From the NCBI RefSeq assembly GCF_963921235.1, contig NC_086108.1, positions 25,234,001 to 25,298,000 on the forward strand: 64,000 nt of DNA, written 5' to 3'. Of this stretch, positions 14,300-50,772 are shown in pieces. The DNA comes from Mobula hypostoma (taxonomy: Eukaryota). Both the position numbers and the translations under genes were made by a program. Under the pieces are notes generated by a model, which did not search any database, was not told where the DNA came from, and saw only the letters and a program-made list of their open reading frames with translations. Position 1 is the stretch's first letter. The number at the start of each line of letters is the position of its first letter.

Positions 14300-14965
14300 A
14301 ACCCGACGCAGGCTGGGAGACTGTTTCGCTGAACACCTACGCTCTGTCTGCCAGAGAAAGCAGGATCTCCCAGTGGCCACACATTTTAATTCCACGTCCC
14401 ATTCCCATTCTGATACGTCTATCCACGGCCTCCTCTACTGTCAAGATGAAGCCACACTCAGGTTGGAGGAACAACACCTTATATTCTATCTGGGTTATCT
14501 CCAACCTGATGGCATGAATATTGACTTCTCTAACTTCCATTAATGCCCCACCTCCCCTTCACACTCCATCCCCTCTTTATTGAATATATTTTTTACTTTC
14601 CCCCCTTTTTTTCTCTCTCTTTTTTCTCCCTTTGTCCCTCTCACTATAACTCCTTGCCCATCCTCTGGGCTTACCCCCCTCCCCCTTTCTTTCTCCCTGG
14701 GCCTCCCGTCCCATGATCCTCTCCCTTCTCCAGCTCTTAGATCCACCCCTCCCCTCCTGTCTTCTCCTATCATTTCAGGTCTCCCCCTCCCCCTCCCATT
14801 TTCAAATCTCTTATTATCTCTTCTTTCAGTTAGTCCTGACGAAGGGTCCTGGCCCGAAATGTTGACTGTACTTCTTCCTATTGATGCTGCCTGGCCTGCT
14901 GCATTCACCAGCATTTTTTGTGTGTGTTCCTTGAATTTCCAGCATCTGCAGATTTCCTCGTGTCT
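14300..14965 (+). mobile_element. Penelope-like element 3' fragment (GIY-YIG C-terminus, pLTR, tail)
   Basis: Encodes TRRRLGDCFAEHLRSV...DLPVATHFNS. Highly similar to 50231-50869. Confidence 0.9.
14832..14867 (+). ncRNA. Minimal type I hammerhead ribozyme motif in PLE pLTR
   Basis: AGTC-CTGACGA-A-GGGTCCTGGCCC-GAAA-TGTT-GACT: helix I AGTC/GACT, CUGAnGA and GAAA cores, helix II GGG/CCC. Confidence 0.7.
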
Positions 14966-15396
14966 ACATAAATGTGAAGTCACCCAAGTGGCAACGAAAA
15001 TGGTATAAATGTAACAGAGCAGTCAGCCTTGTTAGGAATGGCCAATAAACATAAAGAAGAATGACAGAAAGATTGGGTAAACTAGAATCCAATCCTCTGC
15101 ATTCGATTTCTGTGATGGATGATTTGTTTGTTTGCAACTCACTAGTATGTTTTTTTAGCTTACAGGAATTGCATCTGTGTTTTGAAAATTGTTTGTAATT
15201 TGGAAGTCTTTTATAAGATAGAAATCCTCTTTGAGTTTTAAATGCACTTTAAGAATTTTGTTTACATTAAGCATGTATCACTAAAAATAAAAGAACGGCT
15301 CAAATCCTGGGTATTGGCAGCTAAGCTCGCCATGCAGGATAAATCATGGAAGTGAACTAGTCTTTGAAGATTGGGTGGCTACACTATAAGATTTAA

Positions 15397-15626
15397 TCAC
15401 AAAGAAGAGAAAATCTGCCGATGCTGGAATTCCAAACAGCACACAAAATAGTCGAGAAACTCAGCAGCCCAGGCAGCATCTATGGAGAAGATTACAGTCG
15501 ATGCTTCAGGCCAAAACCCTTCAGCAGGTGTGCTGATGAAGGGTCTCGGCCTGAAACATCAACTCTATTCTTTTCCATAGGTGCTGCCTGGCCTCCTGAG
15601 TTTCTCCAGCATTTTGTGTGTGTTTT
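15397..15626. mobile_element. Palindromic mini-Penelope insertion (two pLTR ends back to back)
   Basis: Minus arm with tail 15397-~15528; plus arm without tail ~15530-15626. Exact TSD TAAGATTTAA at 15387-15396 and 15627-15636. Confidence 0.8.
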
Positions 15627-15639
15627 TAAGATTTAAAAT

Positions 15640-16567
15640 GGTTCAAGATGGCGGTAGTGAATCTCAGTGATTAAAGAAACAGGCAAGACAACTAAATACT
15701 TTGATAATCACTTCTTTTTTGGTAAACAATCATTGCAAAAAATAGTGTCCAACTACCCTTTGGACTTGGAGGCAATTTGATGAGGCAGAGCCGAGGCAGC
15801 AAATCCTTCACCAAGAGCGAGGAAGACCCGAGGTTTGATCGATTTAAGTGCCGGGCTGAATTGGAAATGCCGGGTACAGGCTGAATCGAGGCGGCAGAGT
15901 CCAGGCCTCAGAATGTGTTGAAGTGACTGAACCTGATGTTTGGGTAATGATTTAGGCGCTAGGCTAGATTGGAAAGGTCAGGGTGTTGGGGCCCTGAACC
16001 GAGGGATAGGTTTGTTCAGCTCACTGCTCCACGACATTTACTCAGCCCTGCGCTGAACTATGGGTCTCCGACTCTCTTCATGGACTTCAGTTCAGAACTC
16101 TATTTGCTGTTTTAAATATACTCTTTTCCATGGATGCTGCCTGATCTGCTGCGTTTCTCCAGCATTTTGTGTGTATTGCTTGGATTTCCAGCATCTAATT
16201 TTCTCTTCTTTGTGATTAAATCTTAAAAGGGATGTTATACTGTAGCCACCCAATCTTCAAAGACTAGCTCACTTCCATGTTTATCCTGCATGGCGAGCTG
16301 AGCTGCCAATACCCACGATTTGAGTGGTTCTTTTATTTTTAGTGATACATGCTTAAATTTAAACAAAATTCTTAAAACACATTTAAAACTTAATAGGCTA
16401 TTGTCTGCATGATTTGTTTTTCTTTTCTCGACACGTTGTGGTGTTTGATGGTCTTTTTTAAAAATGGGTTGTTTTGGGTTTCTTTGTTTTGCAGCTGCCT
16501 GTTAGAAATCGAATCTCAAGCTTGTATGATGTATACAGGCTTTGATGATAAATGTACTTTGAACTTT
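15640..16567 (+). mobile_element. Non-autonomous Rex1-tailed repeat, interrupted by a duplicated segment at 16121-16393
   Basis: Starts TTCAAGATGGCGG and ends GATAAATGTACTTTGAACTTT, like the Rex1 at 34044-37188. Confidence 0.55.
16121..16393 (+). repeat. Inverted duplicate of 15231-15491 (PLE 3' end plus ~165 bp of flank)
   Basis: The reverse complement aligns throughout, e.g. GCATGTATCACTAAAAATAAAAGAAC and CTAGTCTTTGAAGATTGGGTGGCTACA, including the PLE/flank junction. Confidence 0.9.
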
Positions 16568-16734
16568 AGGGAGGATACCAATAGCTGTCTATGTCGGACA
16601 GGGCTTAAGGATTTCATGGTCAGCAAACGTTATGCTGTCACAGGATATTGGAAGAGTGAATTAAACACAGAAAATGGGGTCAGGTTGTATCCAGGGAGAG
16701 ATAAAGAGAGTTATTGCTTCAAGTCAATGACTGT

Positions 16735-17225
16735 TCATAGAGTCAAAGATTGTGCAGCATGGAAGTTGGCCCTGCAGATGACCACACTAATGATGACTTT
16801 TTGACCCATCTACACAAATCCTATCTGCCTGCATTTGGACTGCATCGTACTATCTCTTGTCTTTTAAAGTGTTTTCTGAATGTCTCTTAAATATAATAAA
16901 TGCACCTGTTTATACTACCTCTGATGAAACTGCATTCTAGGTATCAACCAATCTTTGTAAAATAACGTACCCCTCAGATCACTTTTAAAACTCCTACTCC
17001 TTATCTTGAAACTATACTTTCTTGTTTTGAAATCCCAATGATGGAAAAAAATATTGACTGCCCATCCTATTTATGCTCTTATAGCATTATATACTTTTAT
17101 CGGGTCTCCCCTTAGCCTTCTGTACTTCAGTGAAAGCAAACCTAATTGACCCCATTACTAATGTCCTCCAATTCGCTCAACATCCTGGTGAATCTTCTCT
17201 GCACCCTCTCCTGTACGATCACATG
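16735..17225 (-). mobile_element. Old CR1 LINE 3' fragment
   Basis: Reverse of the VQERVQRRFTRM-type motif (CATCCTGGTGAATCTTCTCTGCACCCTCTC) and of a CR1 3' UTR. Confidence 0.65.
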
Positions 17226-17649
17226 TTTCCTCACTCATCAGAACTGAGAGAAGTTAAAACTTTGTTTACATATTTAATGGTTCCTGTGAGAGTTCTTTAA
17301 TGAGATTGAAATAAGATGATGTCACAGCTGCTGCATTCTAGAGAAACTTTGAAATGATTAAAACCAGCGGAGCAAGCAAGTGATTAAAGGAGAATCTGAA
17401 AATATAAAGCTTTCAAAAACAAAGACAAGATTTTAATCTTAAAAACTCAAAGGACAGTAGGCATTAGAAAGATCAGGAAATTCTTGTCACAGGGATCACC
17501 ACTTATAGGGAGGTGTCTATATGGTCAACGGTGTAGGCCATCACACTATATATCAGGGCAAGATCTGGGCCATAAACCTAACAGTAATATATCGGAACAT
17601 TATTCACAAAATATATCTCTATCTTTAGCAGCACAGCAACTGTTGTTAC

Positions 17650-17853
17650 TTAGCTTCCTCTATCACATTACTGCTAGCCTCCTTCCCCTCCCCCCACCTT
17701 TTTATTCTAGCATCCTTCTGCTTTCTTTTCTGTCCTAAAGATGGTTTTTGGCCTGAAATATCGACTGTTTATTCATTTCCATAGATGCTGCCTGACCTGC
17801 TGAGTTCCTCCAGCATTCTGGATTTCTAGCATCTGCAGATTTTTTTTGTGTTT
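17650..17853 (+). mobile_element. Degenerate Penelope-like 3' end
   Basis: Decayed hammerhead motif (GGCCTGAAATATCGACT), then ATAGATGCTGCCTGACCTGCTGAGTTCCTCCAGC and the GCATCTGCAGA tail. Confidence 0.75.
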
Positions 17854-20719
17854 ATTGTTACAGCTGTTTATGTCATAACATGTGATAGCTGTTGGCAATT
17901 CATTGCAGATGGAGATTTGCCATATTTCCAATAAAATGCCATTGGCAAGTTACCACATCATACAGATTTTTTGTTCCCAAGAAGGCAAAGGAATCTAAAA
18001 CTCAGATATCATATTTTAGTTGTCACCACTCTATCTCGGTCTTTGGATTAACGTCATATCTCAAAAATCCTTTTTCCAATATCATGAATGTCTTACACAT
18101 TTATGATTGAGAAACCATGGAATGGATACAACATAGAAGGCAGTTATCCAGCCCATTGTATTTATTCCAGATGTAATTTAGATCACCTGATGGAAAGTTC
18201 AGAGGAGTAATTAAACAATTCATTTATCCTATACTTAGGTTAACTCCATTACATGCTGGTCCTGAAGCAGTATATCAGTTTGTAAAAATTAATTCTTTAT
18301 ATTTATATGTTGTACAGAAAAAGGCTGATAGAATGTAATCCAATAAAGATATCCAAGTGATTTATAAAAAGAGCAATTCGTCCCTCAGAGTGAATTACAA
18401 TGTATTATTTCACTGACATAGTCAGGCAATTTTCCACAAAGAGCAATGGATTCTTGGATCAACTGCATGTTATAATCCAATTCAAAGGCCTTTATGTGGA
18501 AAAGAAGATATGGGAAATGAATTACAGCCTGCAATCTAATTTATATGGTATAAGTCTAAAGTTACAACTACTCAGAGGCCCACACTGGGAGGGAAATAGG
18601 GAGGGGCAGCAGAGTCATGAAAGGTTGTAATTCAATTGAATGATTTGAGTGACATAAAGAAAATAATACACCTCCAAGCTATTACAAAGCATTAATCATA
18701 TTTTAAGGGTCCGATTACTTCATAAATCATATGCTTGAGATGAGGCAGGACTCTGAAAACAGGTTCAGTTGATATACTGATGCCTGTGAGGAAATGCTTG
18801 AGGACATTTCCAAGAATGCAATTAATATTAATTTTATAAAACATAATAAGCTATTAAATACAGTCAGAGGGAAACACGCATGGCTTATAGAAGTAATGGA
18901 ATTCTTCAAAAAGAATCGTAAAAAGTTGTACAACAAAATTATAAAAACACTCTGCAATTATACAGAAATAGCAATACTTCAGTATCTGACTCATTGGAGC
19001 TGTTAAACTTTTCAGAACCACATTTCCCACAACTCCCTTCAACACATTAGGGCCCTGGTTCCTACCCTCCCTTTAAACATACTGGTGCCAACTCTTCCTT
19101 TGAACAAACTAGGGTTCGCAGATCCATGCTCCCTTGAAATTCACCAGATTCGCTGAAAATTTGATTGTTCTACTACACCTAAAAAAATTAAAGTGTGCAG
19201 GGTATTACGTGAATAACAACCAAGTGTATGGAAAATCTGACAGTTTGGCACCACCAAGGTGATTAGGCTGCTGGATTAACAAAGTTTTATAATATTCAGT
19301 TTCTAAATGAATTCAATATTAAGCAATATTCAATATTAATACCGAATTCAATATTAATTGAATGCCACAAAATATCTTCGTAACAGCAAGTTGATGACAA
19401 GGCTGAGTAGAGAATAACATTTTTAATGAACTGGACCAAGTAAGTCATTGGACTAGCACTTTAAATAGCAATAGCACTTTAAATATAACTATACATGATA
19501 ATTGTGCTTGATGAAAGATTAATGAAGGATTTTTACTTAAGAAATCTATTGGCAAGTTTGGAATGCCATAAATGAATTGAATGTGATTACAAGACATGAA
19601 TGGGGCTAATTTTGCAATGAAAATTTGGGTCTTTCACATTGTGGACTCAATGCTAGAATATTTAACTTTATTACTGTCTCATGACACACCTTGAATGCTA
19701 TATTAAAATAAACCATTTGCATCTCTCAATGGTGAAGAAAAACATGGGTTCAACCAAGATCAACATGATGGTTCTGGGACCTGACTACGAAGGACAACAG
19801 AATTCACTATTAAATAAGTTTTTTATTAGCTTTCCAAAAAATAAAGGGAGTTCAAACCAGTAACCAGTTACTTATCTGATGTGATCTCTCTGTTCCCAGT
19901 TAATGAAAACTGAAACAAAATATCTAAACCTAAATAGGATACTTCCTTTCTCCACTACAACAGAACTCAGTTTACATCAAAGACACCCAGCAAATTTCAA
20001 TTTTGACTTAAGCTATTTAAATAATGCAAATAAAGCATACTTGCTTTATGCTGATTGTGTTAAATGCTCAAACCATGAGGTTATATTCGAAGAAACTGAA
20101 CCTACTTTTATTTGCAAAAGTAACTTCAGATCTACGGTATAACTTTCATTTATACCTTGAAATTCGTAAGTCCTAAAATCACAGCCATGTTTAACAATTG
20201 CAAGAATTCTTAGTTCAAATTGACAGAGATGTAGATTGTGATGTTTTGAATGCTGGAAGCATAAAACACTGTATTTAGATCAAAGGTCAAGAATCAAGGG
20301 TCAACAATGTTGGGTGCGGCCTCAAAGGCTCACTTTTTTTCTGATTTAACTTGGTGATAGATTGGTACTACAGAAAGTAAATGAATTGAACACTGTTCAG
20401 AAGGAGCCAAATGTCTGATACCTTATCTAAAGTAATTACCATGATTTCTCTGCTATAAAGAATTCTGCAGAAACATTTTGGCAATCTATATTGCAACATG
20501 CACTATATTTGCTTCATCCGTATTGTCTCCTATTTCTTCTGAGGATTCTGTTAAATCAGCCTGTTGTGATTAGACTGTAAGAAATCCATTCTTTCTTCTC
20601 TTAACTAACTTCAAAATGTGTGTGGATTATTTCTTACATTAATATCTGTTTGCATAATCACTGACTGATTGACAAAGCTGCAGTTCTCCATTTCTGAACG
20701 GATTGATTTGACGGCAACA

Positions 20720-20766
<47 letters not shown>
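20720..20766. repeat. (CT)n microsatellite
   Basis: Near-perfect CT dinucleotide run. Confidence 0.95.
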
Positions 20767-20769
<3 letters not shown>

Positions 20770-22098
20770 CAATTTCAGATTTATGTTTGCATTAATAAGA
20801 GGAATGGGCTCAAATATCTGCCATTATAATATTATGTATTGTCTCCTTGGAATGTCACCTCTCTTTCAGTACCATTTACTTGTCTATGATTATATCACTG
20901 AGTTGGCTCACTTTATTGATAGTTTTTTGTGCCACGAGAATTTTGTACGAAAGACAGTATACATTAATCATTTAATGATTTGCCTTTATTTTGCATTTAT
21001 ATTAAAATATCAGATATACTACTAATCACAGTACACTTTCTTTAGTTGTGCTTCTATTTTATTCATATTTATCTTTTCCATTATTGAGAAGATGCTCTGC
21101 ATTCCCAGATTTCTCTAAATTCATTTTTCTACATATTGCTTTCAGTCTCTGGATTTTATGCTTGGTTTCATTTTCTTTTGTAATTAGAACCTTTGAATTT
21201 ACCGATTACAAACTTACATTTCTATATTTATTGGGCTTCTGTTGCAAAGCCTATACATCTTGTGTGGGTATGACTAGTCAGGTCAGAAGCATCTTTGATA
21301 TGAATATTTCCCATTGTTTTATTTATTAATAACATCAAGGTGAGTCCCAGATTTATCCAAATTGCTTTTTTCTGTGGTAAGTGCCTTTAGTTCTAAACAC
21401 ATGAGGCTTTTTGATATTTAATTAGCTATATATATATACAATTATTCTGACCATCACCTTAAAGCCATAATTTCCTTTTTGTGTCATAAATTCTTGAATA
21501 TAAAAATCATGTTAAAAATATGAAACTGTATTTTGCGAGAAATACTTAACAACATTTCTTCCAATTGGTAATAAATGGGTTTACTGCTCTTTCCCATCCT
21601 TTTACTCATTATGACTTCACAAAGAATCCAATTCTAATTCTTCTGGTATTTAATATCTGTCCTGTGCTATATGACCTCTGATCGTGGTTCTCTGAGGCAT
21701 TTATTATTTATCCATGTCTGGCCACATCTCTGCTCATACACTGAATTTCCTTGGTGATTGGCTGTAGCTTTGCAAGAATGTGATCTCAGGTCTAACCTCA
21801 GGCCACCTTTAATTTGATATTTTTTTCTGCTTCAGGATCAAACTGCACTTTTTATATATAAAGTGCATACTTCCTTGCTGATGATTATTTATTTTTTCCT
21901 TGACATTATTCTACCATGATGGGTTTTCATGTTTTACCATTCCATAGATTTGATCTTGTTTTCCTTTGCTATCTTCCTCCTAACAGGTCCAGGTTTTATA
22001 GGCATTTAATACTTTCATTGTGCTCTGAGCTCCATGTGGTTTAGTGTGAAAAGATATCTCTGTATAAAATGTAGGTGAAAGGATATGTAGTGATTTTA

Positions 22099-22588
<490 letters not shown>

Positions 22589-22849
22589 GAACTCATGTTT
22601 GTAAGGAAAATAGCAACAGCATTTCACAGAAAGGTATTTATCTTCAAGTGAGCTTGGAAATTAAAGGCTTTTTAGACCGGACGGTAAAGAACAGAAGTGG
22701 TGAAAGACTAAAAAGGCAAAGGCATCTACTCTCATTCCAACTTTCCTTACCTGACCTTTTCAACAAAGCATTAACAATGACACACACTCATTGTAACCAT
22801 TGGCTATTGTCTATGGCAGAATGATACAGACACAAGAAAGCTTTCGTAA

Positions 22850-27170: not shown

Positions 27171-27557
27171 TATTTCTAGCATGTGCTAGAAATCTGAAAT
27201 AAAAGTAGGAAATGCAGATCAAGCAGTTTAAGTCCATAATCCTTCAACAAGGGTGAACAGGGAAAAAGGATCTGACAGGTATTAAGTTAGAAAGCAGAGG
27301 AGAACCTCTTCCAGTTCCACAAGAGAAAAGCATGGAAACTCCCCTTGGCCCTTAATATTAGGATGTGACAAATAGTCAGAGCTTCGAAAAGCAAACTGTT
27401 GGAGGAGCATCAGAGAATGGAAATAGACAGTCAGTGTTTCAGGTCAGTGCCCTTCATTTGTCTCACTGAAAACTAGTTGCAAGTATGCCTAAGTGAAGAA
27501 AGTTACAGCATAATTTCTTGGAACATAGAACATAGAACATAGAACATGCCTATCTAA

Positions 27558-30465: not shown

Positions 30466-30956
30466 ACAAACAAGAGAAAATCTGCAGATGCTGGAAACCC
30501 AAAGCAACATTCACAAAATGCTGGCCAGGCAGCATCTGTGGAAAAGAGGTGAAGGTCCAACCTGATGGCACGAACATTGATTTTTTGAACTTCCAGTAAT
30601 TGCCTCCCCTCCTCTCCTTCACCATTCCCCATTCTCATTCCCCCCTTTCACCTTACCTCCTTAACTGCCCTCTGGTGCTCCCGCTTCCCTTTCTTCCATG
30701 GCCTGTCCTCTCCTATCAGATTCCCCCTCTTCCAGCCCTTTATCACTTTCACTAATCAACTTCCCAGCTCTCTACTTCATCCCCTCCTCCTCCCAGTTTC
30801 ATTTATCATTTCTTCCTCCCCTCTCCCCACCATCTTACTCTGAATCCTCTCCTTCCTTTCCAGTTCTGATGAAGGGTCTCGGCCCAAAACGTTGAGTGTT
30901 TACTCTTTTACATAGATGTTGCCTGGCCTGCTGAGTTCCTCCAGTATTATGTGCTG
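30466..30956. mobile_element. Inverted Penelope insertion: short tail-bearing minus arm plus longer tailless plus arm
   Basis: Minus arm 30466-~30551. Plus arm has a hammerhead motif at 30862-30897 (CTGATGA AGGGTCTCGGCCC aAAACGTT). Imperfect TSD CAAGGGCAGGATT/CAAGGGCAAGACT. Confidence 0.8.
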
Positions 30957-34043: not shown

Positions 34044-37000
34044 GGAAGATGGCGCCGGTGAACCAAGACAATATTCTGCAGGTTATATATAAAACTTCTA
34101 AATATACCTCTTTTGAATTTCTCTCACTGCAATCTGCAGCATGTAATATCCCCTTAAGCAAAGTAGTTTTGAATCCCCTTAATGAACTTAATGAACTACA
34201 GATTGCGCAATCTTCTGAAGGAGCCGGTGAACTTAACTCCCAAGCATGCAGGAGCAACAGCTGGTTGGACAAAGGTTCATTGCCATGGGAGGAAGTAAGA
34301 CAGGAGGGGACTCCAAGCGAGGCTGAAATGCAGAGGGATGAGGCCCCCTCTACTTAGCATCTTGTTAGCAAATGTGCAGTCACCGGAGAACAAAATTAAG
34401 GATGAGGGCAAGATTGCCGTATCATAGGGAAATGAGGGATTGTTGTTTTCTGTGTTTTACTGAGACATGGCTTACTCGGAGTATGGCAGACACAGCGATC
34501 AGACCCGAAGGCTTCTCAACTACACAGGATGGACTGAACTGCCAATTTGGAAAAGGCAAAAGGTGGTGGCGTGTATTTCATGATAAAGTTGTGTTCCAAG
34601 AAGACAATTCCCCTGACCTCGAGCACTTTATGATCAAGTGCTGACCGTTCTACTTACCAAGAGTGTTCTCCTCCATGAACTTGACCTCTGTTTAAATACC
34701 ACCAGCAGCCAACCAGAAACAGTCCATCCTGACACATTACAAAATCATAGTCGGGGATTTCAATGAGGTTTGTTTGAAAAACTCCCTGCCTAGTTACCAT
34801 CAACATATAATCTGTAGCACCCGAGATCTCAACACATTAGACCACTGCTATACTAAGATAAGCAATGCCAACTGTTCCAAGCCCAGACCATATTTTGAGA
34901 AATCTAATCACTTGGCTGTTCCTCCAACCTGCATACAGGCAGAGGCTAAAAAAAGAAGTCTTCAGAGATTAGTACAACAAAGAGCTGGTCATGAGAGGAG
35001 GAGGAGCAGCTCTGGGATTGCTTCAAATTAGTGGACTGGGCTGTGTTCAAGGACTCATCTGTAGATCTGAATGAATACACCACAGTTGTTACAGACTTTA
35101 TAAACACAGTTGTAGACAAGTGTGTCCCCACAAAATCATTCAGAGGCTTAGCCAACCAGAAGCCCTGGATGAACCATGGGATCCACAATCTGCTGAAGGT
35201 CAGATCAGTGGCATTCAAGTCTGGCAACCAAGAAAGTTAAGGGGCCCAGATATAATCTCCAAACAGCTATCTTGTGGGCAAAGTGACAATCCTGGATTAA
35301 ACTTGAATCAATGAAGGATGCTCAACAACTGTGGCAGGGCTTCAATGCTATCACATCTTACAAAGTGAGATCAAGCAACATAGGTGACAACGGGGCTTCA
35401 CTTCAAGATGAGCTTAATGCCTACTATGCTTGCTTTGACCATCAAAACATGGAGGAACCATCATAAATTCCCACATCCCCCAATGACCCTGTGATTTCAG
35501 TCTCTGAACCTGAAGTTAGAACATCCTTCTGGAGGGGGAACCAATAGAAAGCATCCAGCCCTGATTGGGTACTTGACTGGGTATTAAAGACCTGTGCTGA
35601 TCAGCTGGCTGGAGTGTGCACTGAGATCTTTAAGCTCTCGCTTTGGCAGTCTGAGGTACCCATCTGCTTCAAGCTGGCTTCAGTTGTACTGGTGCCCATA
35701 GAAGAACATGGTAACCTCCATCCATGACCATCATCCAGCAGCATTTACATCCACCGTGACAAAGTGCTTTGAGAGATTGTTCATAAAACACATTAGCTTT
35801 TGCCTAAGAAGCAACTTGGATCCACTCCAATTTGCCTACCAGCTCAACACATCCACAACAGATGCTCATCAGCTCTTCTCTCAACCCAGGAACATCTGGA
35901 CAGCAAAGGTGCATACATCAGGATGGTTTTTATCGACTACAGCTTGGCATTCAATTTTATTATCCCCTCAAAACTGATCAATAAGCTTCAAGACCTTGGC
36001 CTCAATATCTCCTTCTGCAATTGGATCCTTGATTTCTCCACTTGTAGACCCCAGTATTTTGGATTGGCAACAACTTCCCCTCTACAATCTCCATCAGCAC
36101 AGGTGTACCACAAGGCTCTGTGCTTAGCCCTTTGCTCCACTCACTTTACACTTATGCTTCTGTGGCTAAGCACAGCTCCAAAGCCATATTCAGATTTGCT
36201 GATGACACCACTGTCACAGGCCAACTCAAAGTTGGTGATGAATCAGCATATAAGAGGGAGATTGAAAATCCGGCTGACTGGTGCCATAACAACAACCTCT
36301 TAGTCAATGTCAGAAAGACTAAGCAGCTGACTTTGACTTCAAGTGGAGGAAACCGGAAGTCTACGAGCCAGTCCTCATCGGGGAATCAGGGGTGGAGAGG
36401 GTCATCCACTCTAAGTTCCTCAGTGTTATCACTTCAGAGGGTCTGTCCTCGGTCCAGCACATAAGTGCCAATATGAAGAAAGCACAACAGCCCCATTACT
36501 TAATTAGAAATTTGCAAAAAATTGGCATGACATCTGAAACTTTGACTAACTTCTGCATATGTGTGTTGAAGAATATATTTACTGGCTGCATCACAGCCTG
36601 GTATGGAAACAGCAATGCCTTTGAATGGAAAATCCTACAAAAAGTAGTGGATATGGCCCAGACATCACAGGTAAAGCCCTCCACACCAGTGAGCACACCT
36701 ACATGGATCATTGTCACAGGAAAGCAGCATCCATCATCAGGGACCCCACTAACAGGCCATGCTTTCTTCTTACTGCTGCCACCAGCAGGAAGGTACAGAG
36801 CCTCAGGACTCACACACTGGTTCAGGAACAGGTATTACTCATCAACCATCAGGCTCTTGAACTCATGGGAATAACTTCACTCAACTTCATTCACCCCAAC
36901 ACCAAACTGTTCCCACAATGGACTCACTTTCAAGAACTCTTCATCTCATGTTCTCGATACTTATTTCTTATTTCCTTATTATTATTATTTCTTTTTTTTT

Positions 37001-40595: not shown

Positions 40596-40704
40596 CATCA
40601 CTGTTGGTATCTAAGAAAATGTATAAAGGATAAATGATTCCCTTTGTTCAATAAATAAGTTATCTGGGATGTTCAGCAGCTTGCTCCGCACAAGTGTAAA
40701 CAAT

Positions 40705-42592
40705 GTTCAAAGTTCAAAATAAATTTATTATCAAAGTACGTATATGTCACCATAGTCAACCCTTAGATTCATTTTCTTGTGGGCATTCACAGAAAATACA
40801 AGAACCACAATGAAATCAATGAAAGGCCAACCCCAACAGGATGGACAAGCTATCAATGTGCAAATATAATAAATTAGTAGATAGATAGATAGATAAATAC
40901 GTAAATAAACATGGAGAGCACGAGGTGAAGAATCGTTGAAAGTGAGTTCATAGGTTATGAGAACAGTTCAGTGATGGGGTGGGTGAAGTTATCCTCTCTC
41001 GTTCAATAGCTTGATGGTGGAGTGGCAATAAATATTCCTGAACCTGTTGGTGTGAGTCCTGAAGCTCCAGTACCTTCTTCCAGATGGCTGCTGTGAGAGG
41101 AGAGCATGTCCTGGGTGACAGCAGACAATAGACAATAGGTGCAGGAGTAGGCCATTCAGCCCTTCGAGCCAGCACCGCCATTCACTGTGATCATGGCTGA
41201 TCACCCGCAATCAGTATCCAGTTCCTGCCTTATCCACATAACCTTTGATTGCGCAATCTTTAAGAGCTCTATCCATCTCTTTCTTGAAAGCATCCAGAGA
41301 CTTGGGCTCCACAGCCTTCTGGGGCAGAGCATTCCTTATATCCACCACTCTCTGAGTGAAAAAGTTTTTCCTCAACTCCGTTCTAAATGGCCTACCCCTT
41401 ATTCTTAAACTGTGGCCTCTGGTTCTGGACTCACCCATCAGCGGGAACATGCTTCCTGCCTCCAGCATGTCCAATCCCTTAATAATCTTATATGTTTCAA
41501 TAAGATCCCCTCTCAGCCTTCTAAATTCCAGAGTATACAAGCCCAGTCGCTCCAATCTTTCAACATATGACAGTCCCGCCATCCCAGGAATTAACCTTGT
41601 GAACCTACGTTGCACTCCCTCAAGAACCTTGTGAACCTACGCTGCACTCACTCAAGAATGTCCTTCCTCAAATTTGGAGACGAAAGCTGCACACAGTACT
41701 CCAGGTGTGGTCTCACTGGGGCCCAGTGCAACTGCAGAAGGACCACTTTGCTCTTATACTCAATTCCCCTTGTTATGAAGGCCAGCATGCCATTAGCTTT
41801 CTTCACTACCTGCTGTACTTGCATGCTTGCTTTCAGTGACTGATGTACAAGAATACCTAGATCTCGTTGTACTTCCCCTTTTCCTAACTTGACTCCATTT
41901 AGATAATAATCTGCCTTCCCGTTCTTACCACCAAAGTGGACAACTTCACATTTATCCACATTAAACTGCATCTGCCATGCATCTGCCCACTCGCGCAGCC
42001 TGTCCAAGTCACCCTGCATTCTCATAACGTCCTCCTCACATTTCACACTGCCACCCAGCTTTATGTCATCGGCAAATTTGCTAATGTTACTTTTAATTCC
42101 CTCATCTAAATCATTAATATATATCATAAACAGCTGCGGTCCCAGCACTGAACCCTGCGGTACCCCACTAGTCACCACCTGTCATTCCGAAAGGGAGCCG
42201 TTAATCGCTACTCTTTGTTTTCTGTCAGCCAGCCAATTTTCAATCCATGTCAGTACTCTGCCCCCTATACCATGTGCCCTAATTTTGCCCACTAATCTCC
42301 TACGTGGGACATTCTCAAAGGCTTTCTGAAAGTCCAGGTACACTACATCCACTGGCTCTCCCTTGTCCATTTTCACAGTTACATGGTGGGGGTCCTTGAT
42401 TATGGATGCTGCTTTCCTGTGATAGCACTCCATGTAAATGTGCTCAATGGTGGGGAGGGCTTTACCTGTGTTGGACTGGGCTGTATCCATTACTTTTTGT
42501 CAGCTTTTCCATTCAAAGGCATGGGTGTTTCCATACAACCAGCCAATATAGCCAATATAGCTTTAAGTGACATGGCAAATCTTTGCAAACTT
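40705..42592 (-). mobile_element. Rex1 3' fragment split by a CR1 insertion
   Basis: Tail at 40705-40735. HPGHALL segment ends ~41117 and KAASIIKDPHH resumes at ~42384. Confidence 0.8.
41118..42383 (-). mobile_element. Relatively young 5'-truncated CR1 with (CTATTGT)n tail
   Basis: VVYLDFQKAF, SGVPQGSVLGPQLF, KFADDIKLGG, QRRFTRLIPGM. Internal 32-bp tandem duplication at 41593-41656. Confidence 0.92.
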
Positions 42593-44139
42593 CCACTTTT
42601 GTTGATTAGAATGGATCTGGTTGCACCGGCAATCCCTTTCCTATTTACCATTGAGAGTTTGATGGTAAGCTACCTTCTTGAACAGTTCTTTTAGTGTCAG
42701 TACTCCCATAGGATTTCAGCATTTTGGCCCAGTGAAAATGAAGTGTAGGCAATTTATTTCCAAATACGGATGGTGTAAACCTGGGAGAAGTTGCGGTTGG
42801 TGGTAATGCCATCACCTTCTCTCCTTACCTTTCATGTTGACTTTGGTAATTGCTGTCAAAATAGCCTAGGCAAGTAGCTACTGTGATTTGTAGATGGTAC
42901 ACACTACATCCACAGTGCACCACTGCTGATGGGAATGAGTGTTTCGCCTCGTTGATAGGCTGCCAATCAAGCAGCCGGTTTGCTGTGTAACGTGCTGGGT
43001 TTCTTGAGCGCTGTTCAGTCTTCTCACTATTGTTACTGCTGCTATTTCCTAAAAATTCCCTGAGGGTCACCAGAATAAAATTTACTTCAGTAAAGGTGAA
43101 ATCCACAGAGGTCGCTGTATCCTTGTGCTCATCATTCTTCCAGCACACCACCACAAAACCAGAGCTTTTCATATCTCTCATCCTGAAAGTTACAACTCGA
43201 TGTGCTAAATGTGAATGTGTTTCTATCCAATTACCACCGCATTCCATTAAGAACTAATTTAAAATAGCTAGAAACAAATTCTCAGTCAGTAGTGTTCAAT
43301 GTGCAACATAATCACGTCAGTGCTTGTACGTTTCCTCCAAAATTCATCCACTAAACTGAGCTGAGACTCTATGAAGATTATTTAGTGCATTTTGTCTGGA
43401 TTAGATTCTAGATGTAGTATCAGTTAGCAAGTTTCATCTGTGCATCTATTTCCAACCATTGATACCGGCTACGGACTTGATTATATTCATTTTCATATTC
43501 CCATGTAACAGCTTTAACTTTCTACCTTTGATTTGTGAGTTGGAATTCAATTGTTTGCCCATAACCATTAATGTTGTATCAAGAGTCAATACTTTCTCCA
43601 AAAGTGAAGCAATGCAACCTGATTTCAATTCAATTCAAGTTTAATTGTCATTTAACCATCTATGAATACAGCCAAATGAAACAGCATTACTCAGGGGTCA
43701 AGATGCAAAGACATGTTACCAACAGTCACACACAGTAAGCACACATAAGATTGCAATTCCATAACAAGAGTCATGAGGCCTACCTCCCTCCCCAAACCCC
43801 CCATGACACCACAGCTTGATGCATACAAGTCCACAAACCCACAAAGAATATCAGTAAAAATATAACAATGCAAAATATGTATAATATATAGCAACCAGAG
43901 TGCAAAGTTTATACATTTTCCAGAAGGGGAAAGAAGAATCCTCTTCAAACATTTATTTCTGCTGAATATTTAGCACTCCTGATATACTTTAAAATGTTAT
44001 TCAAGAGAGTTTGTACATCTCCACTGCTATGGAGATCTGACCATTGGTTGTGGTGATACCGTATTAATTGCATCAGTACCAAGTTCAGTAAAAATGGCAA
44101 TCCTTTCTTATGGAGGAAAAATTCTGGTTTGGCTGCATT

Positions 44140-44640
44140 GAAGTACTGCATTCATTCTGGCCATCCCATTAGAAGAAAGATATGGCAGCTTTTGAGAGGG
44201 CATGGGAGGTTTATCAGGGTGCTGCCTGTATTTGAGGGCATGAGCCGTGAGGAAGGTTTGAACAAGCAAGTGTTGCTTTCTCTTAGGTAGCACAGGCTGA
44301 GTGGGGAAGTTTACAAAATTATGAGAGTTATAGATAGGCTGCAAGTATCCTTTTCCTGGGGTCAAAAAAGTCTAATTTCAGAGACTATGTATTTAAGGTG
44401 AGAGAGGGCAAGTTCAAAGGAGATGTGCTGGGCAAGTCTTGTGTACAGGGAGTAGGAACCTGAATGCACTGCCGAGGTTAGTAGTGGAGACAGATACAAT
44501 ATAGATATTTAAGAGGCACATGAATATGCTGAGAATAGAGGGAATGGACAATACATGGGCAGAAGGGATTATAGTCTCAATCTGGAATCATTAGCTTAAT
44601 TAGTTCAGCACTGAGGGCCAAAGGAGCTGATCTATTTTAT
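44140..44640 (+). mobile_element. Old CR1 3' fragment
   Basis: Decayed LKYCIHSG/RKIW segment and CR1 3' UTR (TTTAAGGTGAGAGAGGGCAAGTTCAAAGGAGATGTG). Confidence 0.6.
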
Positions 44641-46017
44641 GCTCCAAGAAGAAAGGAACATTCATCTTTACTCTTGTGGAGTAATTCATCACAGAGATGC
44701 AAAGCCACATAATTGTTTTATTCACTTACACAAGAGTATACACACCATGGATCAATCAACCTGTGCACGTGAGAGTCTTAAGCAGTCACTCTTATTCCAA
44801 TTTGATAAACAAGGCTGGAGCAGTAGAACCACAATGATATTCCATTGGTTCGGTCAGACTGGGTATTCTCATGGCTCACGGCACAAAAACAGCCACGTTG
44901 AAATGAAAGTCAGATGGTGTTATATAATTATAAATGAACAACCCATTAACAGGATATAGGAACACAGTTCAATGGAGTAATTTAACTCACCAAACCTGAT
45001 ATAAAGTAAAAGAATATCAGCAGTTGTGTCTCATTTCTTTTCCTCCTCAGTACACAGACCATATCCAGGTTAAAGTTTCAGAATAAGAATTCATTAACAT
45101 AATTAAGCTTTGTCCTTACCCATATACAAATAAACTTCAAAAGTTCACTAACTCTAATTGCTCATGTATCCAGAGGTGTGCAGGCTGCAGGTTATGATAT
45201 GTTTGGAACTGTAGAATGGAGAATCCACATTCTATGCAACATATTGGGAAACTTTGTGAACAACCATAAAGGTGATAAAATATAATGTTAGTTTATTACC
45301 TTGACTACTGATTGAGTAGACCTTATGTGCTGTCCCCATGGCAACATTGGTTTCTTTAGGTATTCTGGTTTCCTGCCTCATCCTAATGATGTGCTGATTG
45401 GGCAATTCGCCACTTAAATTACCTTAGTGTGGGTAATTGGCAAAATAAATATGGGGAATTAATGGGTATGTGAAAGAAACTTAGTTGTAGTAGGATTATA
45501 CCAAAAAGCTTCAAAACCTGAGCCTTTGTACCTTCCTCAGCATCTGGATCTTTGACTTCCTTAGGGGAATACCTCATCCTATATGGATTAGAAATCGGAA
45601 ATAACGCCTCCAACTAACTGACAATCAACACTGCACACCTCAAGGATGTGTACTTAGCCCACTACTCCACTCTGTCTCCACCCATTACTGTGCGGCTAGG
45701 CACTGCTTAAATGCCAGCTATAAAATTGCTGATGACACAACTGTTGTTAACAGAATTTCAGATAGTGACAAAAAGGCATACAGGAGTGAAATGAATCAGC
45801 TAGTTGAGTGGTGTCACAGCACCAAACTTGCACTCTGTGTCAATAAGACCAAAGAACTGAGTGTGGACTTCAGAAAGGATAAGATGAGGAAACACATACA
45901 CCAGTCCTCATTGAGGGATTAGAAGTGGAGAGAGTGAGCACTTTCAAGTTCCTTGGTGCCAATATCTCTGAGGATCTAATCTGGACCCAACATATCATGA
46001 CAGTAAAGGCATGACAG

Positions 46018-46149
46018 TGTTTTGGTGAAGGGTCTCAGGCCGAAATGACAACTGTACTCTTTTCCATAGATGCTGCCTGGCCTGCTGGGTTCCTCCAGCA
46101 TTTTATGTATGTTGGTTGGATTTCCAGCATCTGCAGATTTTCTCTCTTT
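46018..46149 (+). mobile_element. Short Penelope 3' end (from the hammerhead to the tail)
   Basis: TGAAGGGTCTCAGGCCGAAATGACAACT...CATCTGCAGATTTTCTC. TSD AGGCATGACAG/AGGCATGTCAG at 46007-46017 and 46150-46160. Confidence 0.8.
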
Positions 46150-48075
46150 AGGCATGTCAGCAACTATATTTCATTAGGAGTTTGAGGAGATTTTGTATGT
46201 CAAAAAAGGCACTCACAAATTTCTATACATGTACTGTGGAGAGCATTTTAACTGGCTGCATCACTGAAAGGACTACTGCACAGGATTGAAGGAAGCTGCA
46301 GAAAGTTGTGAACTCAGTCAGCTTTATCATGGGCACTAGTCTCCCTAGCATCGAAGTCATCTTCAAGGAGTGATGTCTCAAAAAAGGCAGCATCCATAAT
46401 TAAGGACCCCAATCACCCAGGACATGCCCTCTTTTCATTGCTACCAACAGGAAGAAGGTACAAGATCCTGAAGGCACATACTCAGTGATGGGGAAGGGAT
46501 GTGCTCAGACTGATGGTTTGAGATGTGTCTATTTTAATGTAAGAAGTATCATAAACAAAGCAGATGAGCTTGGAGTGTGGATCAGTACTTGGAGCTAAGA
46601 CGTTGTAGCCATTACAGAGACTTGGATGCATCAGGGGCAGGAATGGCTACTTAGCGTGCCAGGCTTTAGATGATTCAGAAAGGACAGGGAGTGAGGCAAA
46701 CGAGGTGGGGGCATGGCACTGTTGATCAGAGAATGTCACGGCTGCAGAAAAGGAGGAAGTCATGGAGGGATTGTCTACTGAGTCTCTGTGGATGGAAGTT
46801 AGGAACCGGAAGAGGTCAATAACTCTACTGGGTATTTTTTTATAGACCACCCAATAATAACAGGGACATCGAGGAGCAGATAGGGAGACAGATTCTGGAA
46901 AGGTATAAGAATAACAGGGTTGGCATGGTGGGAAATTTTAATTTCCCTGATATTGATTGGCATCTCCCTAGAGCAAGGGGTTTAGATGGGTGTGGAGTTT
47001 GTTAGGTGTGTTCAGGAAGGTTTCTTGACACAATATATAGATAAGCCTGCAAGAGAAGAGGCTGTACTTGATCTGGTATTGGGAAATGAACCTGGTCAGG
47101 TGTCACATCTCTCAGTGGGAGAGCATTTTGGAGATAGTGATCACAATTCTATCTCCTTTACCATAGCATTGAAGAAGGATAGGAGTAGACAAGTTAGGAA
47201 AATGTGTAATTGGAGTAAGGGGAAATATGAGGTCATCAGGCAGGAACTTGGAAGCATAAATTGGGAACAGATGTCCTCAGGGAAATGTATGTCAGAAATG
47301 TGGCAAATGCTCACGGGATATTGGCGTGGCGTTCGGCGTAGGTACATTCTAATGAGACAGGGAAGGGGTGGTAGGGTGCAGGAACCATGGCGTACAAAGA
47401 CTGTTGAAATCTAATCTAGTCAAGAAAAAAAGAAAAGCTTATGAAAAGTTCAAAAAACTAGGTAATGATAGAGATCTAGAAAATTATATGGGTAGCAGAA
47501 AGGAGTTAAGAATGAAATTAGGAGAGTCAGAAGGGGCCATGAGAAGGCCTTGGTGAGCAGGATTAAGGAGAACCCCAAGGCATTCTGCAAGTATGTGAAG
47601 AGCAAGAGGATAAAATGTGACAGAATAGGACCAATCAAGTGTGACATGGAAAAGTGTGTACGGAACCGAAGGAGGTAGTGGTGGTATTTAATTAATACTT
47701 TGCTTTAGTATTCACTATGGAAAAGGACCTTGGCAATTGTAGGGATGACTTAATTGCAGACTGAAAAGCTTGAGCATAGAGACATTAAGAAAGAGGATGT
47801 GCTGGAGCTTTTGGAAAGCATCAAGTTGGATAAGTCACCAGGACCGGACAAGGCTACTGTTGGAGGTGAGGAGGAGATTGCTGAGCCTCTGACAATAATC
47901 TTTGCATCATCAGTGAGGATGGGAGAAGTTCCGGAGGATTTGTTGCAGATGTTGTTCCCTTATTCAAGAAAGGGAGTAGAAATATCACAGGAAATTATAG
48001 ACCAGTGAGTCTTACTTCAGTCAACACACATCAAACTTGCTGGTGAACGCAGCAGGCCAGGCAGCCTCTCTATAC

Positions 48076-48111
48076 AGTCGACATTTCGGGCGGAGACGCT
48101 TCGTCAGGACA
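48076..48111 (-). ncRNA. Minimal hammerhead ribozyme motif (helix II mutated)
   Basis: Minus strand TGTC-CTGACGA-A-GCGTCTCCGCCC-GAAA-TGTC-GACT. Confidence 0.6.
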
Positions 48112-50736
48112 GACTGAAAGAAGAGTTAGAAAGAGATTTGAAAGTGGGGGGGGAGGGGGAGATCTGAAATGATAGGAGAAGACAGGAAGGGGAGAGATGG
48201 AGCCAAGAGCTGAACAGGTGATTGGCAAAGGGGATGTGAGAGGATCATGGGACAGGAGGCCCAGGGAGAAAGATGAAGGGGGGGGGACCCAAAGGATGGG
48301 CAAGGGGTATAGTCAGAGGGACAGAGGGAGAAAAAGGAGAGTGAGAGAAAGAATGTGTGTATAAAAATAAATAACAGATGGGATACGAGGGGGTGGTGGG
48401 GCATTAGCGGATGTTAGAGAAGTCAATGTTCATGCCATCAGGTTGGAGGCTACCAGATGGAATATAAGGTGTTGTTCCTCCAACCTGAGTGTGGCTTCAT
48501 CTTGACAATAGAGGAGGCTGTGGATAGACATGTCAGAATGGGAATGGGATGTGGAATTAAAATGTGTGGCCACTGGGAGATCCTGCTTTCTCTGGCGGAC
48601 AGAGCGTAGGTGTTCAGCAAAGCAGTCTCCCAGTCTGTGTCGGGTCTCGCCAATATATAGAAGGCCACATCGGGAGCACCGGACGCAGTATATCACCCCA
48701 GCCGACTCACAGGTGAAGTGTCGCCTCACCTGGAAGGACTGTCTGGGGCCCTGAATGGTGGTAAGGGAGGAAGTGTAAGGGCATGTGTAGCACTTGTTCC
48801 ACTTAAAAGGATAAGTGCCAGGAGGGAGATCAGTGGGGAGGGAGGGGGGGGGTATGAATGGACAAGGGAGTCGCGTAGGGAGCGATCCCTGCGGAAAGCG
48901 GGGCGGGGGGGAGTGAAAGATGTGCTTAGTGGTGGGATCCCGTTGGAGGTGGCGAAAGTTACGGAGAATAATATGTTGGACCCGGAGGCTGGTGGGGTGG
49001 TAGGCGAGGACCAGGGGAACCCTATTCCTAGTGCGGTGGTAAAAGGATGGAGCGAGAGCAGATGTGCGTGAAATGGGGGAGATGTGTTTGAGAGCAGAGT
49101 TGATGGTGGAGGAAGGGAAGCCCCTTTCTTTAAAAAAGGAGGACATCTCACTTGTCCTGGAATGAAAAGCCTCATCCTGAGAGCAGATGCGGCAGAGACA
49201 GAGGAACTGCGAGAAGGGGATGGCATTTTTGCAAGAGACAGGGTGAGAAGAAGAATAGTCCAGATAGCTGTGAGAGTCAGTAGGCTTATACTAGACATCA
49301 GTGGATAAGCTGTCTCCAGAGACAGAGACAGAAAGATCTAGAAAGATCTAGAAAGGGGAGGGAGGCGTCGGAAATGAACCAGGTAAACTTGAGGGCAGGG
49401 TGAAAGTTGGAGGCAAAGTTAATAAAGTCAAAGAGCTCAGCATGCGTGCAGGAAACAGCGCCAATGCAGTCGTCGAGGTAGTGAAGGAAAAGTGGGGGAC
49501 AGATACCAGAATAGGTACGGAACATAGATTGTTCCACAAAGCCAACAAAAAGGCAGGCATAGCTAGGACCCATACGTGTGCCCATAGCTACACCTTTAGT
49601 TTGGAGGAAGTGGGAGGAGCCAAAGGAGAAATTATTAAGAGTAAGGACTAATTCCACTAGATGGAGCAGAGTGAAAGAAGCGGAGAGCTTTGAGACCTTC
49701 TTGATGGGGGTTGGAAGTATATAGGGACCGGACATCCATGGTGAAAATAAAGCGGTGGAGGCCAGGGAACTTAAAATCATCGAAATGTTTAAGCGCGTGA
49801 GAAGTGTCACGAATATAGGGAAGAAGGGATTGAACAAGGGGGGATAAAACCGTGTCGAGGTATGCAGAAACGACTTCGGTGGGGCAGGAGCAAGCTGAGA
49901 CAATAGGTCTGCCAGGACAGGCAGATTTGTGGATCTTGGGTAGGAGGTAGAAACGGGAAGTGCGAGGTGTGGGAACTATAAGGTTGGTAGCAGTGGATGG
50001 GAGATGCCCTGAGTGGATAAAGTCGGTGATGGTGTGGAAGACAATGGCCTGGTGCTCCTTAGTGGGGTCACGATCGAGGGGTAAATAAGAGGAGGTATCC
50101 GCGAGTTGTCACTGTGCCTCGACAAGGTAGAGGTCAGTACGCCAGACTACAACAGCACCCCCCTTATCGGCGGGTTTAATAGTAAGGTTAGGATTAGTGC
50201 AGAGTGAGTGGAGAGCAGAGCGTTCGGAAGACCTATGCTCTGTCCGCCAGAGAAAGCAGGATCTCCCAGTGGCAACACATTTTAATTCCACATCCCATTC
50301 CCATTCTGACATGTCTATCCACGGCCTCCTCTACTGTAAAGATGAAGCCACACTCAGGTTGGAGGAACAACACCTTATATTCCGTCTGGGTAGCCTCCAA
50401 CCTGATGGCATGAACATTGACTTCTCTAACTTCCGCTAATGCCCCACCTCCCCCTCGTACCCCATCCGTTATTTATTTTTATACACACATTCTTTCTCTC
50501 ACTCTCCTTTTTCTCCCTCTGTCCCTCTGACTATACCCCTTGCCCATCTTCTGGGTGTTTCCCCCCCCCCCCGGTCTTTCTCCCTGGGCCTCCTGTCCCA
50601 TGATCCTCTCATATCCCCTTTACCAATCACCTGTCCAGCTCTTGGCTCTATCCCTCCCCCTCCTGTCTTCTCCTATCATTTCTGATCTCCCCTCTCCCTC
50701 CCACTTTCAAATCTCTTACTAACTCCTCCTTCAGTT

Positions 50737-50772
50737 AGTCCCGACGAAGGGTCTCGGCCTGAAACGTCGACT
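50737..50772 (+). ncRNA. Minimal hammerhead ribozyme motif (core U4C variant)
   Basis: AGTC-CCGACGA-A-GGGTCTCGGCCT-GAAA-CGTC-GACT; palindromic ACGT helix III; predicted cleavage after GTC (50768). Confidence 0.65.

What the first reader, a model, noticed from the sequence alone, without database searches (positions are those of the whole stretch)
14832..50772. Family of minimal hammerhead ribozyme motifs dispersed by Penelope-like elements
Seen: at least seven related motifs (14832-14867, ~15496-15528 minus, ~15530-15564, 30862-30897, ~46022-46053, 48076-48111 minus, 50737-50772) give the consensus AGTC-CTGA(C/T)GA-A-GGGTCTCGGCCC-GAAA-CGTC-GACT, about 100 nt upstream of the element's 3' end. 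Established: this fits a type I hammerhead (helix I AGUC/GACU, helix II GGGU/GCCC with a CUCG loop, GUC cleavage triplet). Its helix III is only the palindrome ACGU, the minimal dimer-dependent form reported in Penelope pLTRs. Inference: minus-strand copies would be transcribed within ASTN1 pre-mRNA. Every copy here carries substitutions, many at CpG.
Basis: partly seen in the sequence, partly recalled or inferred. Interest (0 to 1): 0.72.

Follow-up and report, generated by a model that had tools for sequence, protein, structure and literature searches.

The report
Penelope transposon hammerheads in shark-ray intron
The seven motifs are real but damaged copies of an already described tiny self-cutting RNA motif that a hugely amplified Penelope-type jumping gene carries in its end repeats; here they sit in ASTN1 introns as likely inactive debris, so the finding is mostly ordinary.

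Summary
Real, correctly read, and of a known kind. All seven motifs are present. They are minimal type I hammerheads (min-HHR, Cervera and De la Pena 2014) in the pseudo-LTR of an endonuclease-positive, Neptune-like Penelope element of a cartilaginous fish. Near-intact elements elsewhere in the genome read pLTR(HHR) - 1015-aa RT/GIY-YIG ORF - pLTR(HHR), with the two motifs 3.5 kb apart. Two exact 31-mers alone give 46,104 copies; sampling suggests about 475,000 HHR-derived copies, about 70,000 fitting the descriptor. The seven motifs come from about five insertions. Only one passes the descriptor, and it is antisense to ASTN1. ASTN introns show no purge of sense copies. Copies show no excess core conservation or covariation; only subfamily consensuses keep the motif. 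Details: the dominant young subfamily has a G10.1-U11.1 wobble (precedented), an older one amplified with core change A6C, copies pile up starting just before the motif, and no peak starts at the cut site. Cleavage is untested and may be weak or dispensable. This scan found the same thing before: 77 notes in at least 23 genomes, several in this one.

The parts
14301..14963 (+). 5'-truncated Penelope-like element end: last 79 codons of the endonuclease, pyrimidine-rich 3' UTR, hammerhead, tail
   Evidence: tblastn 92% to P0001 aa 937-1015; blastn 82% to the intact unit; profile hit
14832..14867 (+). min-HHR copy 1 (C3 at 14836): core intact, helices I and II paired, GUU triplet; the only window copy passing the descriptor; antisense to ASTN1
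15405..15529 (-). short pLTR end with min-HHR copy 2 (15496-15528): A6C core, A15.1G, 5' arm of helix I lost; likely of the A6C subfamily; sense to ASTN1; back to back with copy 3
15531..15638 (+). short pLTR end with min-HHR copy 3 (C3 at 15533): core intact, U11.1, helix I and the 15.2-16.2 palindrome broken
22221..22328 (-). ASTN1 coding exon (108 nt, AG...GT flanks); shows that the window lies in ASTN1 introns on the minus strand
   Evidence: PF19441 positions 244-279, E 1e-7; sequence; neighbouring exons outside the window; paralogue test
22406..22588 (.). old back-to-back pair of pLTR ends (22406-22485 minus without hammerhead; 22485-22588 plus, decayed hammerhead), about 80 nt upstream of the ASTN1 exon
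30556..30953 (+). older-subfamily element end with min-HHR copy 4 (30862-30897): G12A core change, helix I broken
46023..46144 (+). short pLTR end with copy 5: the CUGA half of the core is lost
48022..50230 (-). minus arm of an inverted insertion: frameshifted RT, linker and GIY-YIG remnants (aa 401-1016 of P0001, 84-94% identity), 3' UTR, min-HHR copy 6 (48076-48111; core intact, helix II mismatch), ending at the first tail site; sense to ASTN1
50227..50869 (+). plus arm of the same insertion: endonuclease end, 3' UTR, min-HHR copy 7 (50737-50772; U4C core change, U11.1), full tail
48006..48021 (+). left copy of a 16-bp target-site duplication (right copy 50870-50885); the target is a LINE-type RT sequence
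   Evidence: sequence; RVT_1 hit E 4.6e-25 for the frame that continues at 50870

Best explanation
The motifs are decayed copies of a minimal type I hammerhead that a very abundant Penelope-like retrotransposon carries in its pseudo-LTR, spread as passive cargo; the motif would likely cut only slowly and only in the parent element's RNA, and the copies in ASTN1 introns are likely inactive. Shown: the motif sits about 300 nt after the stop codon and about 170 nt before the ATG of a 1015-aa RT/GIY-YIG ORF, once in each pLTR, 3.5 kb apart; most genomic copies are 5'-truncated or inverted end pieces. Inferred from published relatives: reverse transcription starts at two internal sites about 95 and 130 nt downstream of the motif, so almost every insertion copies the hammerhead. 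With no helix III of its own, the motif would need a second copy (ACGU pairing with ACGU) or the element's protein to cut after GUC. As a monomer it is predicted to fold into an inactive rod in which core bases G5-G8 pair with C15.2-C17. Genomic copies were mostly made from uncut RNA, and cutting is probably not needed for each round of amplification.
For: Descriptor match. Two same-strand motifs 3506-3516 nt apart around the ORF in 4 of 20 long-ORF loci, pLTR pairs 95-99.6% identical. ORF: RVT_1 E 3.8e-6, GIY-YIG E 1e-3 (both under the curated cut-offs), DKG, YIDD, CX4CXXC. Nearest named homologues are Chiloscyllium proteins at 71% and 68%. Among the six largest subfamily consensuses, 5 of 36 motif columns vary (non-CpG) against 32 of 32 upstream and 13 of 16 in the linker just downstream. 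Bimodal 3' ends as in the anole element PAc. Monomer fold is the rod; the dimer with open cores is about 9-10 kcal/mol less stable than two rods by nearest-neighbour energies. No start peak at the cut site: 9 of 90 breakpoints over 13 positions, 1 of 16 among host-joined ones. No strand bias in 400 kb of ASTN introns: 56 sense vs 60 antisense hits, 6 vs 4 descriptor-intact. Published min-HHRs: monomer inactive, dimer weak; PAc motif cuts only with protein and is not needed for insertion in vitro.
Against: No cleavage was measured. Rfam finds no hammerhead in the window. Genomic copies show no excess core conservation (67 of 750 vs 152 of 1406 in helices and loop, p 0.18) and no covariation above expectation. 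The block downstream of the motif is also kept across subfamilies (9 of 33 columns vary), so conservation alone does not single out catalysis. Folding z-scores of the isolated motif are unremarkable (-0.7 to -1.3 for the better copies). The clade call rests on the linker motif, with no tree against named references.
Confidence: 0.82

Rival explanations
1. [quoted passage not shown]
For: A subfamily amplified with A6C: 4,093 copies with non-A at position 6, and 73 of the first 100 are C against 13 G and 14 T; it forms its own cluster on downstream columns alone. The youngest, largest subfamily carries U11.1 (36 of 45 young copies, while four other CpG sites stay intact in 35-36 of 45), as do 20 of 20 long-ORF loci. 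5' ends pile up just before the core: 18 of 66 start within -13..0 of C3 and 20 of 54 within -33..0, against 4 of 34 in the next 34 nt (p 0.013); second sample 23 of 60 vs 2 of 37 (p 0.0002; some loci overlap or are two arms of one insertion). A branch-point-like heptamer, pyrimidine tract and CAG end 6 nt before C3, as the Drosophila Penelope intron ends at helix I.
Against: Most subfamilies, including the youngest, keep the full catalytic core (76,737 copies with A6 vs 4,093 without). G10.1-U11.1 occurs in published PLE motifs (cichlid, Xenopus, Clonorchis, Schistosoma), so it need not mean loss. The A6C subfamily could have been mobilised or complemented in trans. No spliced genomic copy was seen in either breakpoint sample (60 and 66 copies, partly the same loci).
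Confidence: 0.3
2. Cleavage at both pLTR motifs releases a unit-length RNA that is ligated into a circle, and copying round the circle makes the pLTR-ORF-pLTR copies; cutting is then essential for full-length, autonomous copies though not for short ones.
For: Proposed by Cervera and De la Pena. Full-length copies have 5' repeats of variable length (about 340-720 bp) that reach hundreds of bases upstream of the motif and are nearly identical to the 3' repeat, which needs a more-than-unit template. The core is kept in the ORF-intact subfamily.
Against: Tandem read-through transcripts explain the same structure. No genomic peak at the cut site. For PAc no reads began or ended at the cut site and core mutants still inserted.
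Confidence: 0.25
3. Sense-strand copies cut or regulate the ASTN1 pre-mRNA.
For: The window is inside ASTN1 and descriptor-intact sense copies exist elsewhere in the gene (6 in 400 kb of ASTN introns, 5 of them in ASTN1).
Against: No depletion or excess of sense copies. Density in ASTN introns (116 per 400 kb) is close to the genome sample (136 per 600 kb). Solo copies are predicted to fold as the inactive rod.
Confidence: 0.03
4. The resemblance to a hammerhead is chance, and the sequence is just a repeat end.
For: The motif is short; Rfam is silent; no covariation among copies.
Against: All 11 core bases, the extra base, helix I, helix II and the palindrome sit in the same place in the element as in published PLE motifs; the Acropora Neptune motif has the same CUGACGAA start, 4-bp helix II and CGUC end. 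The descriptor gives 0 hits on reversed sequence against 12, 10 and 1 on real sequence.
Confidence: 0.02

Closest known systems
Minimal type I hammerheads (min-HHR) in pLTRs of metazoan Penelope-like elements (Cervera and De la Pena 2014, PMC4209133; read main text parts 1-2 of 4 and supplement file 2 parts 1-2 of 3; file 1 could not be searched)
   Same: CUGANGA + one base, G10.1, GAAA, palindromic 15.2-16.2, NUH, short helix I, no helix III; one copy per pLTR; mostly dispersed solo copies. The Acropora Neptune motif is nearly the same design.
   Different: No cartilaginous fish in the tables I saw. Copy number is far higher (about 70,000 descriptor-fitting by extrapolation vs about 9,000 in Xenopus and 4,000 in coelacanth). 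Helix II is 4 bp, shorter than most listed. An A6C subfamily exists.
Neptune (or Nematis) clade EN+ Penelope-like elements (Craig et al. 2021, PMC8557442; 12 passages read)
   Same: Single ORF with RT, CX2-5CxxC linker and C-terminal GIY-YIG; DKG motif; partial tandems, inverted 5'-truncated arms, 30-40 bp tail, hammerhead near the 3' end.
   Different: Clade not confirmed by a tree; Nematis not excluded. No microsatellite target preference was tested.
PAc, Poseidon element of Anolis carolinensis (Frangieh et al. 2024, PMC11167929; parts 1-2 of 4 read)
   Same: Two internal RT start sites that define the tail; hammerhead in the pLTR; no sign of copies or reads starting at the cut site.
   Different: PAc lacks the Zn-finger linker and its ORF starts inside the hammerhead; here the ATG is about 170 nt downstream. 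Protein-assisted cleavage is shown for PAc, untested here.
Animal non-LTR retrozymes (bioRxiv 10.64898/2026.07.22.740005; part 1 of 5, passages and Discussion read)
   Same: Type I hammerheads related to PLE pLTRs; reported in one Chondrichthyes genome.
   Different: Retrozymes are head-to-tail tandem arrays, reported as excluded from introns in Xenopus; the copies here are dispersed, solo or inverted, and common in introns.

Membership tests
min-HHR (type I) | Core CUGANGA and GAAA | tested here: met
   46,104 exact copies of two forms; intact in ORF-bearing elements; intact in 3 of the 7 window copies
min-HHR (type I) | One base between A9 and 10.1; G10.1-C11.1 pair | tested here: met
   Extra A present; G-C in older forms, G-U in the dominant young subfamily; G-U also occurs in published members
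min-HHR (type I) | Helix I closing the motif and helix II with loop | tested here: met
   5-bp and 4-bp helices in the folds; descriptor 12 hits per 600 kb vs 0 reversed
min-HHR (type I) | No helix III; palindromic 15.2-16.2; NUH triplet | tested here: met
   ACGU followed by C17 in the main forms
min-HHR (type I) | Covariation among families in one genome | tested here: not met
   Double changes no more than expected at 9 pairs in 165 copies; subfamily consensuses keep the motif but show no compensatory swap. All copies belong to one closely related element group.
min-HHR (type I) | Site-specific self-cleavage as dimer or with protein | not testable with these tools
   Only assembled contigs of guessed RNA runs were available
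EN+ Penelope-like element | Single ORF with PLE-type RT and C-terminal GIY-YIG | tested here: met
   1015-aa ORF; RVT_1 and GIY-YIG hits below cut-off; 303 homologues, the 120 listed all with PF26215
EN+ Penelope-like element | pLTR partial tandems, inverted arms, tail | tested here: met
Neptune clade | CX2-5CxxC linker between RT and EN | tested here: met
   CX4CXXC at aa 883-891; shared with Nematis
Neptune clade | RT phylogeny with named Neptune references | not tested
   No named reference set was available through the tools
Non-LTR retrozyme | Head-to-tail tandem array of short non-coding units each with a hammerhead | tested here: not met
   Window copies are solo or inverted; no genome-wide search for arrays was made

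The most novel reading that the evidence does not exclude
This genome holds a natural mutation series showing that the Penelope hammerhead is a switch that is mostly off: it sits at the very start of the element's RNA as a self-inhibiting rod, subfamilies with a weakened (G10.1-U11.1) or broken (A6C) ribozyme amplified to tens of thousands and thousands of copies, and slower cutting may itself have favoured the latest burst. With about half a million derived copies it may be among the largest hammerhead loads in any genome, and intact ORFs make the open question of what the hammerhead does for Penelope elements directly testable.
Probability: 0.2. Interest if true: 0.55.

Novelty: new member of a known kind. 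Interest (0 to 1): 0.25.

Why it matters
The motif class and its link to Penelope elements were published in 2014, so the finding as stated adds one more host group. What it offers is material: the role of the hammerhead in endonuclease-positive Penelope elements is still called unclear (PMC8557442), and this genome has ORF-intact young elements, three natural motif variants (C11.1, U11.1, A6C) with very different amplification, and a sharp record of where copying stops. That would let one test whether cutting helps, hinders or is irrelevant to transposition. There is no sign that it matters for ASTN1.

Tried and rejected
Rfam scan of the window at E up to 1: three chance-level hits, no hammerhead. 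Pfam on five frameshifted window fragments of the element: 0 of 5 hit; the intact ORF was needed. Peak of copy starts at the cleavage site: not found (the first 90 distinct matches of 2,458, all on contig C1; microhomology blurs ends by 1-3 nt). Purge of sense copies from ASTN introns: not found (37 stretches in ASTN1, 3 in ASTN2; low power for intact copies). Excess core conservation and covariation among copies: not found (the comparison with the downstream block is biased because that block was used for detection and clustering, and truncated copies add noise to the core columns). Splicing to the acceptor-like site before helix I: no GT..AG joint to it among the joints shown in two read layouts (many rows not shown), and no spliced genomic copy; inconclusive. 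Sequencing runs: no RNA holder listed, RNA status only guessed, contigs only, so nothing on expression or RNA ends. U11.1 as something unprecedented: rejected. Folding the U and C forms in longer context was not a clean comparison because the flanks differ. Literature: 'hammerhead ribozyme' + Penelope + cartilaginous gave 0 papers; a six-term shark/ray/Neptune search gave 0; Penelope + Chondrichthyes + transposable elements gave 12 listings, none on this motif by title except the retrozyme preprint; passages of PMC2837043 and PMC544870 gave no rate data for G10.1-U11.1. The preprint's supplements were not available and may name the chondrichthyan motif.
Full report
Observation. The seven motifs are in the sequence at the stated places. 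A 25-nt core pattern finds five with up to three mismatches, against none in 100 shuffles. A profile built from genomic copies finds 16 repeat ends in the window, 11 covering the motif, and none in reversed control sequence. Rfam reports no hammerhead, which is unsurprising for damaged copies of a form without helix III. The window is G000:C50:25234001-25298000 of a 3.48-Gb assembly.

What carries the motif. Upstream of the copy at 48076-48111 lie frameshifted remnants of an RT, a cysteine linker and a GIY-YIG endonuclease. A genome search with one fragment gave 26,181 candidates, 150 scored, many in long open frames. I fetched 20 with the longest frames. Four carry two same-strand motifs 3506-3516 nt apart around the ORF, in direct repeats of 440-680 bp that are 97-99.6% identical. 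The ORF is 1015 aa from the ATG, with RVT_1 and GIY-YIG hits below Pfam's cut-offs and DKG, YIDD and CX4CXXC motifs. The linker marks Neptune or Nematis elements (PMC8557442); I made no tree. The nearest named homologues are bamboo shark proteins at 71% and 68%, so the host is a cartilaginous fish; 'ray' comes from earlier notes and was not tested. The motif is about 300 nt after the stop codon and about 170 nt before the next ATG. Element ends fall at +92..97 (17 of 60) or +128..136 (25 of 60) from C3, matching the two internal RT start sites and tail shown for the anole element (PMC11167929).

Fit to the known motif. Cervera and De la Pena define the min-HHR by the core, an extra base before helix II, G10.1-C11.1, and a palindromic 15.2-16.2, and report it in Xena, Poseidon and Neptune elements of fishes. 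The motif here has each feature. Their Acropora Neptune example is nearly the same design. Their tables, as far as I read them, list no cartilaginous fish; a 2026 preprint reports type I hammerhead retrozymes in one. My searches found no paper on this family.

Abundance. Two exact 31-mers give 6,207 (C11.1) and 39,897 (U11.1) copies; a CpG-tolerant pattern gives 76,737. Sixty 10-kb stretches at round coordinates on 22 large contigs hold 136 repeat ends, 82 covering the motif and 12 fitting my descriptor. That extrapolates to about 475,000 (378,000-590,000) and about 70,000 (36,000-121,000), against about 9,000 in Xenopus.

State of the window copies. Only 14832-14867 passes the descriptor, and it is antisense to ASTN1. 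The others have A6C with A15.1G (15496), broken helix I and palindrome (15530), G12A (30862), a lost CUGA (46022), a helix II mismatch (48076) or U4C (50737). Copies 48076 and 50737 are the two arms of one inverted insertion with a 16-bp target duplication inside a LINE; 15496 and 15530 are back to back.

ASTN1. Astrotactin exons flank the window on the minus strand, one lies inside at 22221-22328 (I first located it with recalled peptide words), and the paralogue on C67 is the one closer to human ASTN2 (62.8 vs 24.8 bits on pieces of 52 and 45 aa). In 400 kb of ASTN introns there are 56 sense and 60 antisense repeat ends and 6 and 4 descriptor-intact motifs: no purge and no excess.

Selection. 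Among genomic copies the core decays like its neighbours (67 of 750 vs 152 of 1406, p 0.18) and no pair covaries beyond expectation (165 of 210 copies, long-ORF loci left out). Across the six largest subfamily consensuses the motif is kept (5 of 36 columns vary) while upstream (32 of 32) and linker (13 of 16) columns change; a downstream block is kept as well (9 of 33). Two subfamilies depart from the ideal core. U11.1 is fixed in the youngest: 36 of 45 young copies have it while other CpG sites are intact in 35-36 of 45, and so do 20 of 20 long-ORF loci, which were however picked by likeness to the window's RT. G-U at this pair is already in the published alignment. A6C marks an older subfamily: 73 of the first 100 of 4,093 non-A matches are C, 13 G, 14 T.

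Folding. The isolated motif folds with helices I and II but also with G5-G8 paired to C15.2-C17, which hides the core; z-scores are weak. The open-core dimer is -11.9 (U form) or -17.1 (C form) kcal/mol against -22.4 or -26.2 for two rods (nearest-neighbour terms only). This predicts little activity without a chaperone, in line with inactive monomers and weak dimers in Schistosoma and protein-assisted cutting in PAc.

Where copies begin. Of 91,728 young copies anchored downstream, 2,458 lack both A13 and A14. Of 90 such breakpoints, 9 are at the cut site, with 13 positions available; 53 are inversions, several through the stem repeats of the motif itself, and 1 of 16 host-joined ones starts at the cut. 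In contrast 18 of 66 copies start within -13..0 of C3, about 20 times the per-base rate further upstream, and a second sample agrees. Read layouts could not decide: no run is on record as RNA and all are contigs.

Verdict. A new member of a known kind. Identity as a PLE min-HHR is well supported; activity is inferred and probably low; an effect on ASTN1 is unlikely. The scan has reported the same family many times (77 notes in at least 23 genomes; several in this genome); these are unchecked notes and I count only what I tested. Interest 0.25, for the copy number, the natural core variants and the breakpoint record.

Noticed in passing
window 1-~1900: Tandem array with a 32-bp unit, about 55 overlapping matches, strong GC skew.
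   Followed up: no
L064 6715-6739 and window 50715-50735 (just upstream of helix I): Branch-point-like heptamer, pyrimidine tract and CAG end 6 nt before C3; older subfamilies also end in a pyrimidine tract and CAG right before helix I. Possible PLE intron acceptor; no spliced form found.
   Followed up: partly
L064 3270-3350; window 50787-50860: The block downstream of the hammerhead is conserved across subfamilies and is predicted to fold as a multibranch stem with two hairpins next to the two 3' end sites; candidate protein-binding or RT start structure.
   Followed up: partly
window 22406-22588: An old back-to-back pair of pLTR ends lies about 80 nt upstream of the ASTN1 exon acceptor.
   Followed up: no
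window 47700-48021 and 50870-51843: LINE-type RT sequence split by the inverted Penelope insertion; the frame after the insertion stays open for over 300 codons. Related LINE pieces at 62555-63665 (inverted, about 75%).
   Followed up: partly
L064 6138-6384: Several contig joints and loose ends start near 6138-6145 in the endonuclease region (a GTGAGT word) in two studies, with unknown bases between; may be diverged or internally deleted subfamilies rather than splicing.
   Followed up: no
window 36107-36214 and 45637-45744: Two copies of a hairpin-like repeat; one gives a sub-threshold mir-27 match (E 0.055).
   Followed up: no
G000:C50:23.65-25.86 Mb: ASTN1 spans at least 2.2 Mb in this genome; ASTN2 on C67 at least 1.4 Mb.
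   Followed up: partly
window 27404-27457 (minus); L140 5563-5635: More diverged hammerhead-like ends with a different helix II, possibly older Penelope families that could supply real covariation.
   Followed up: no
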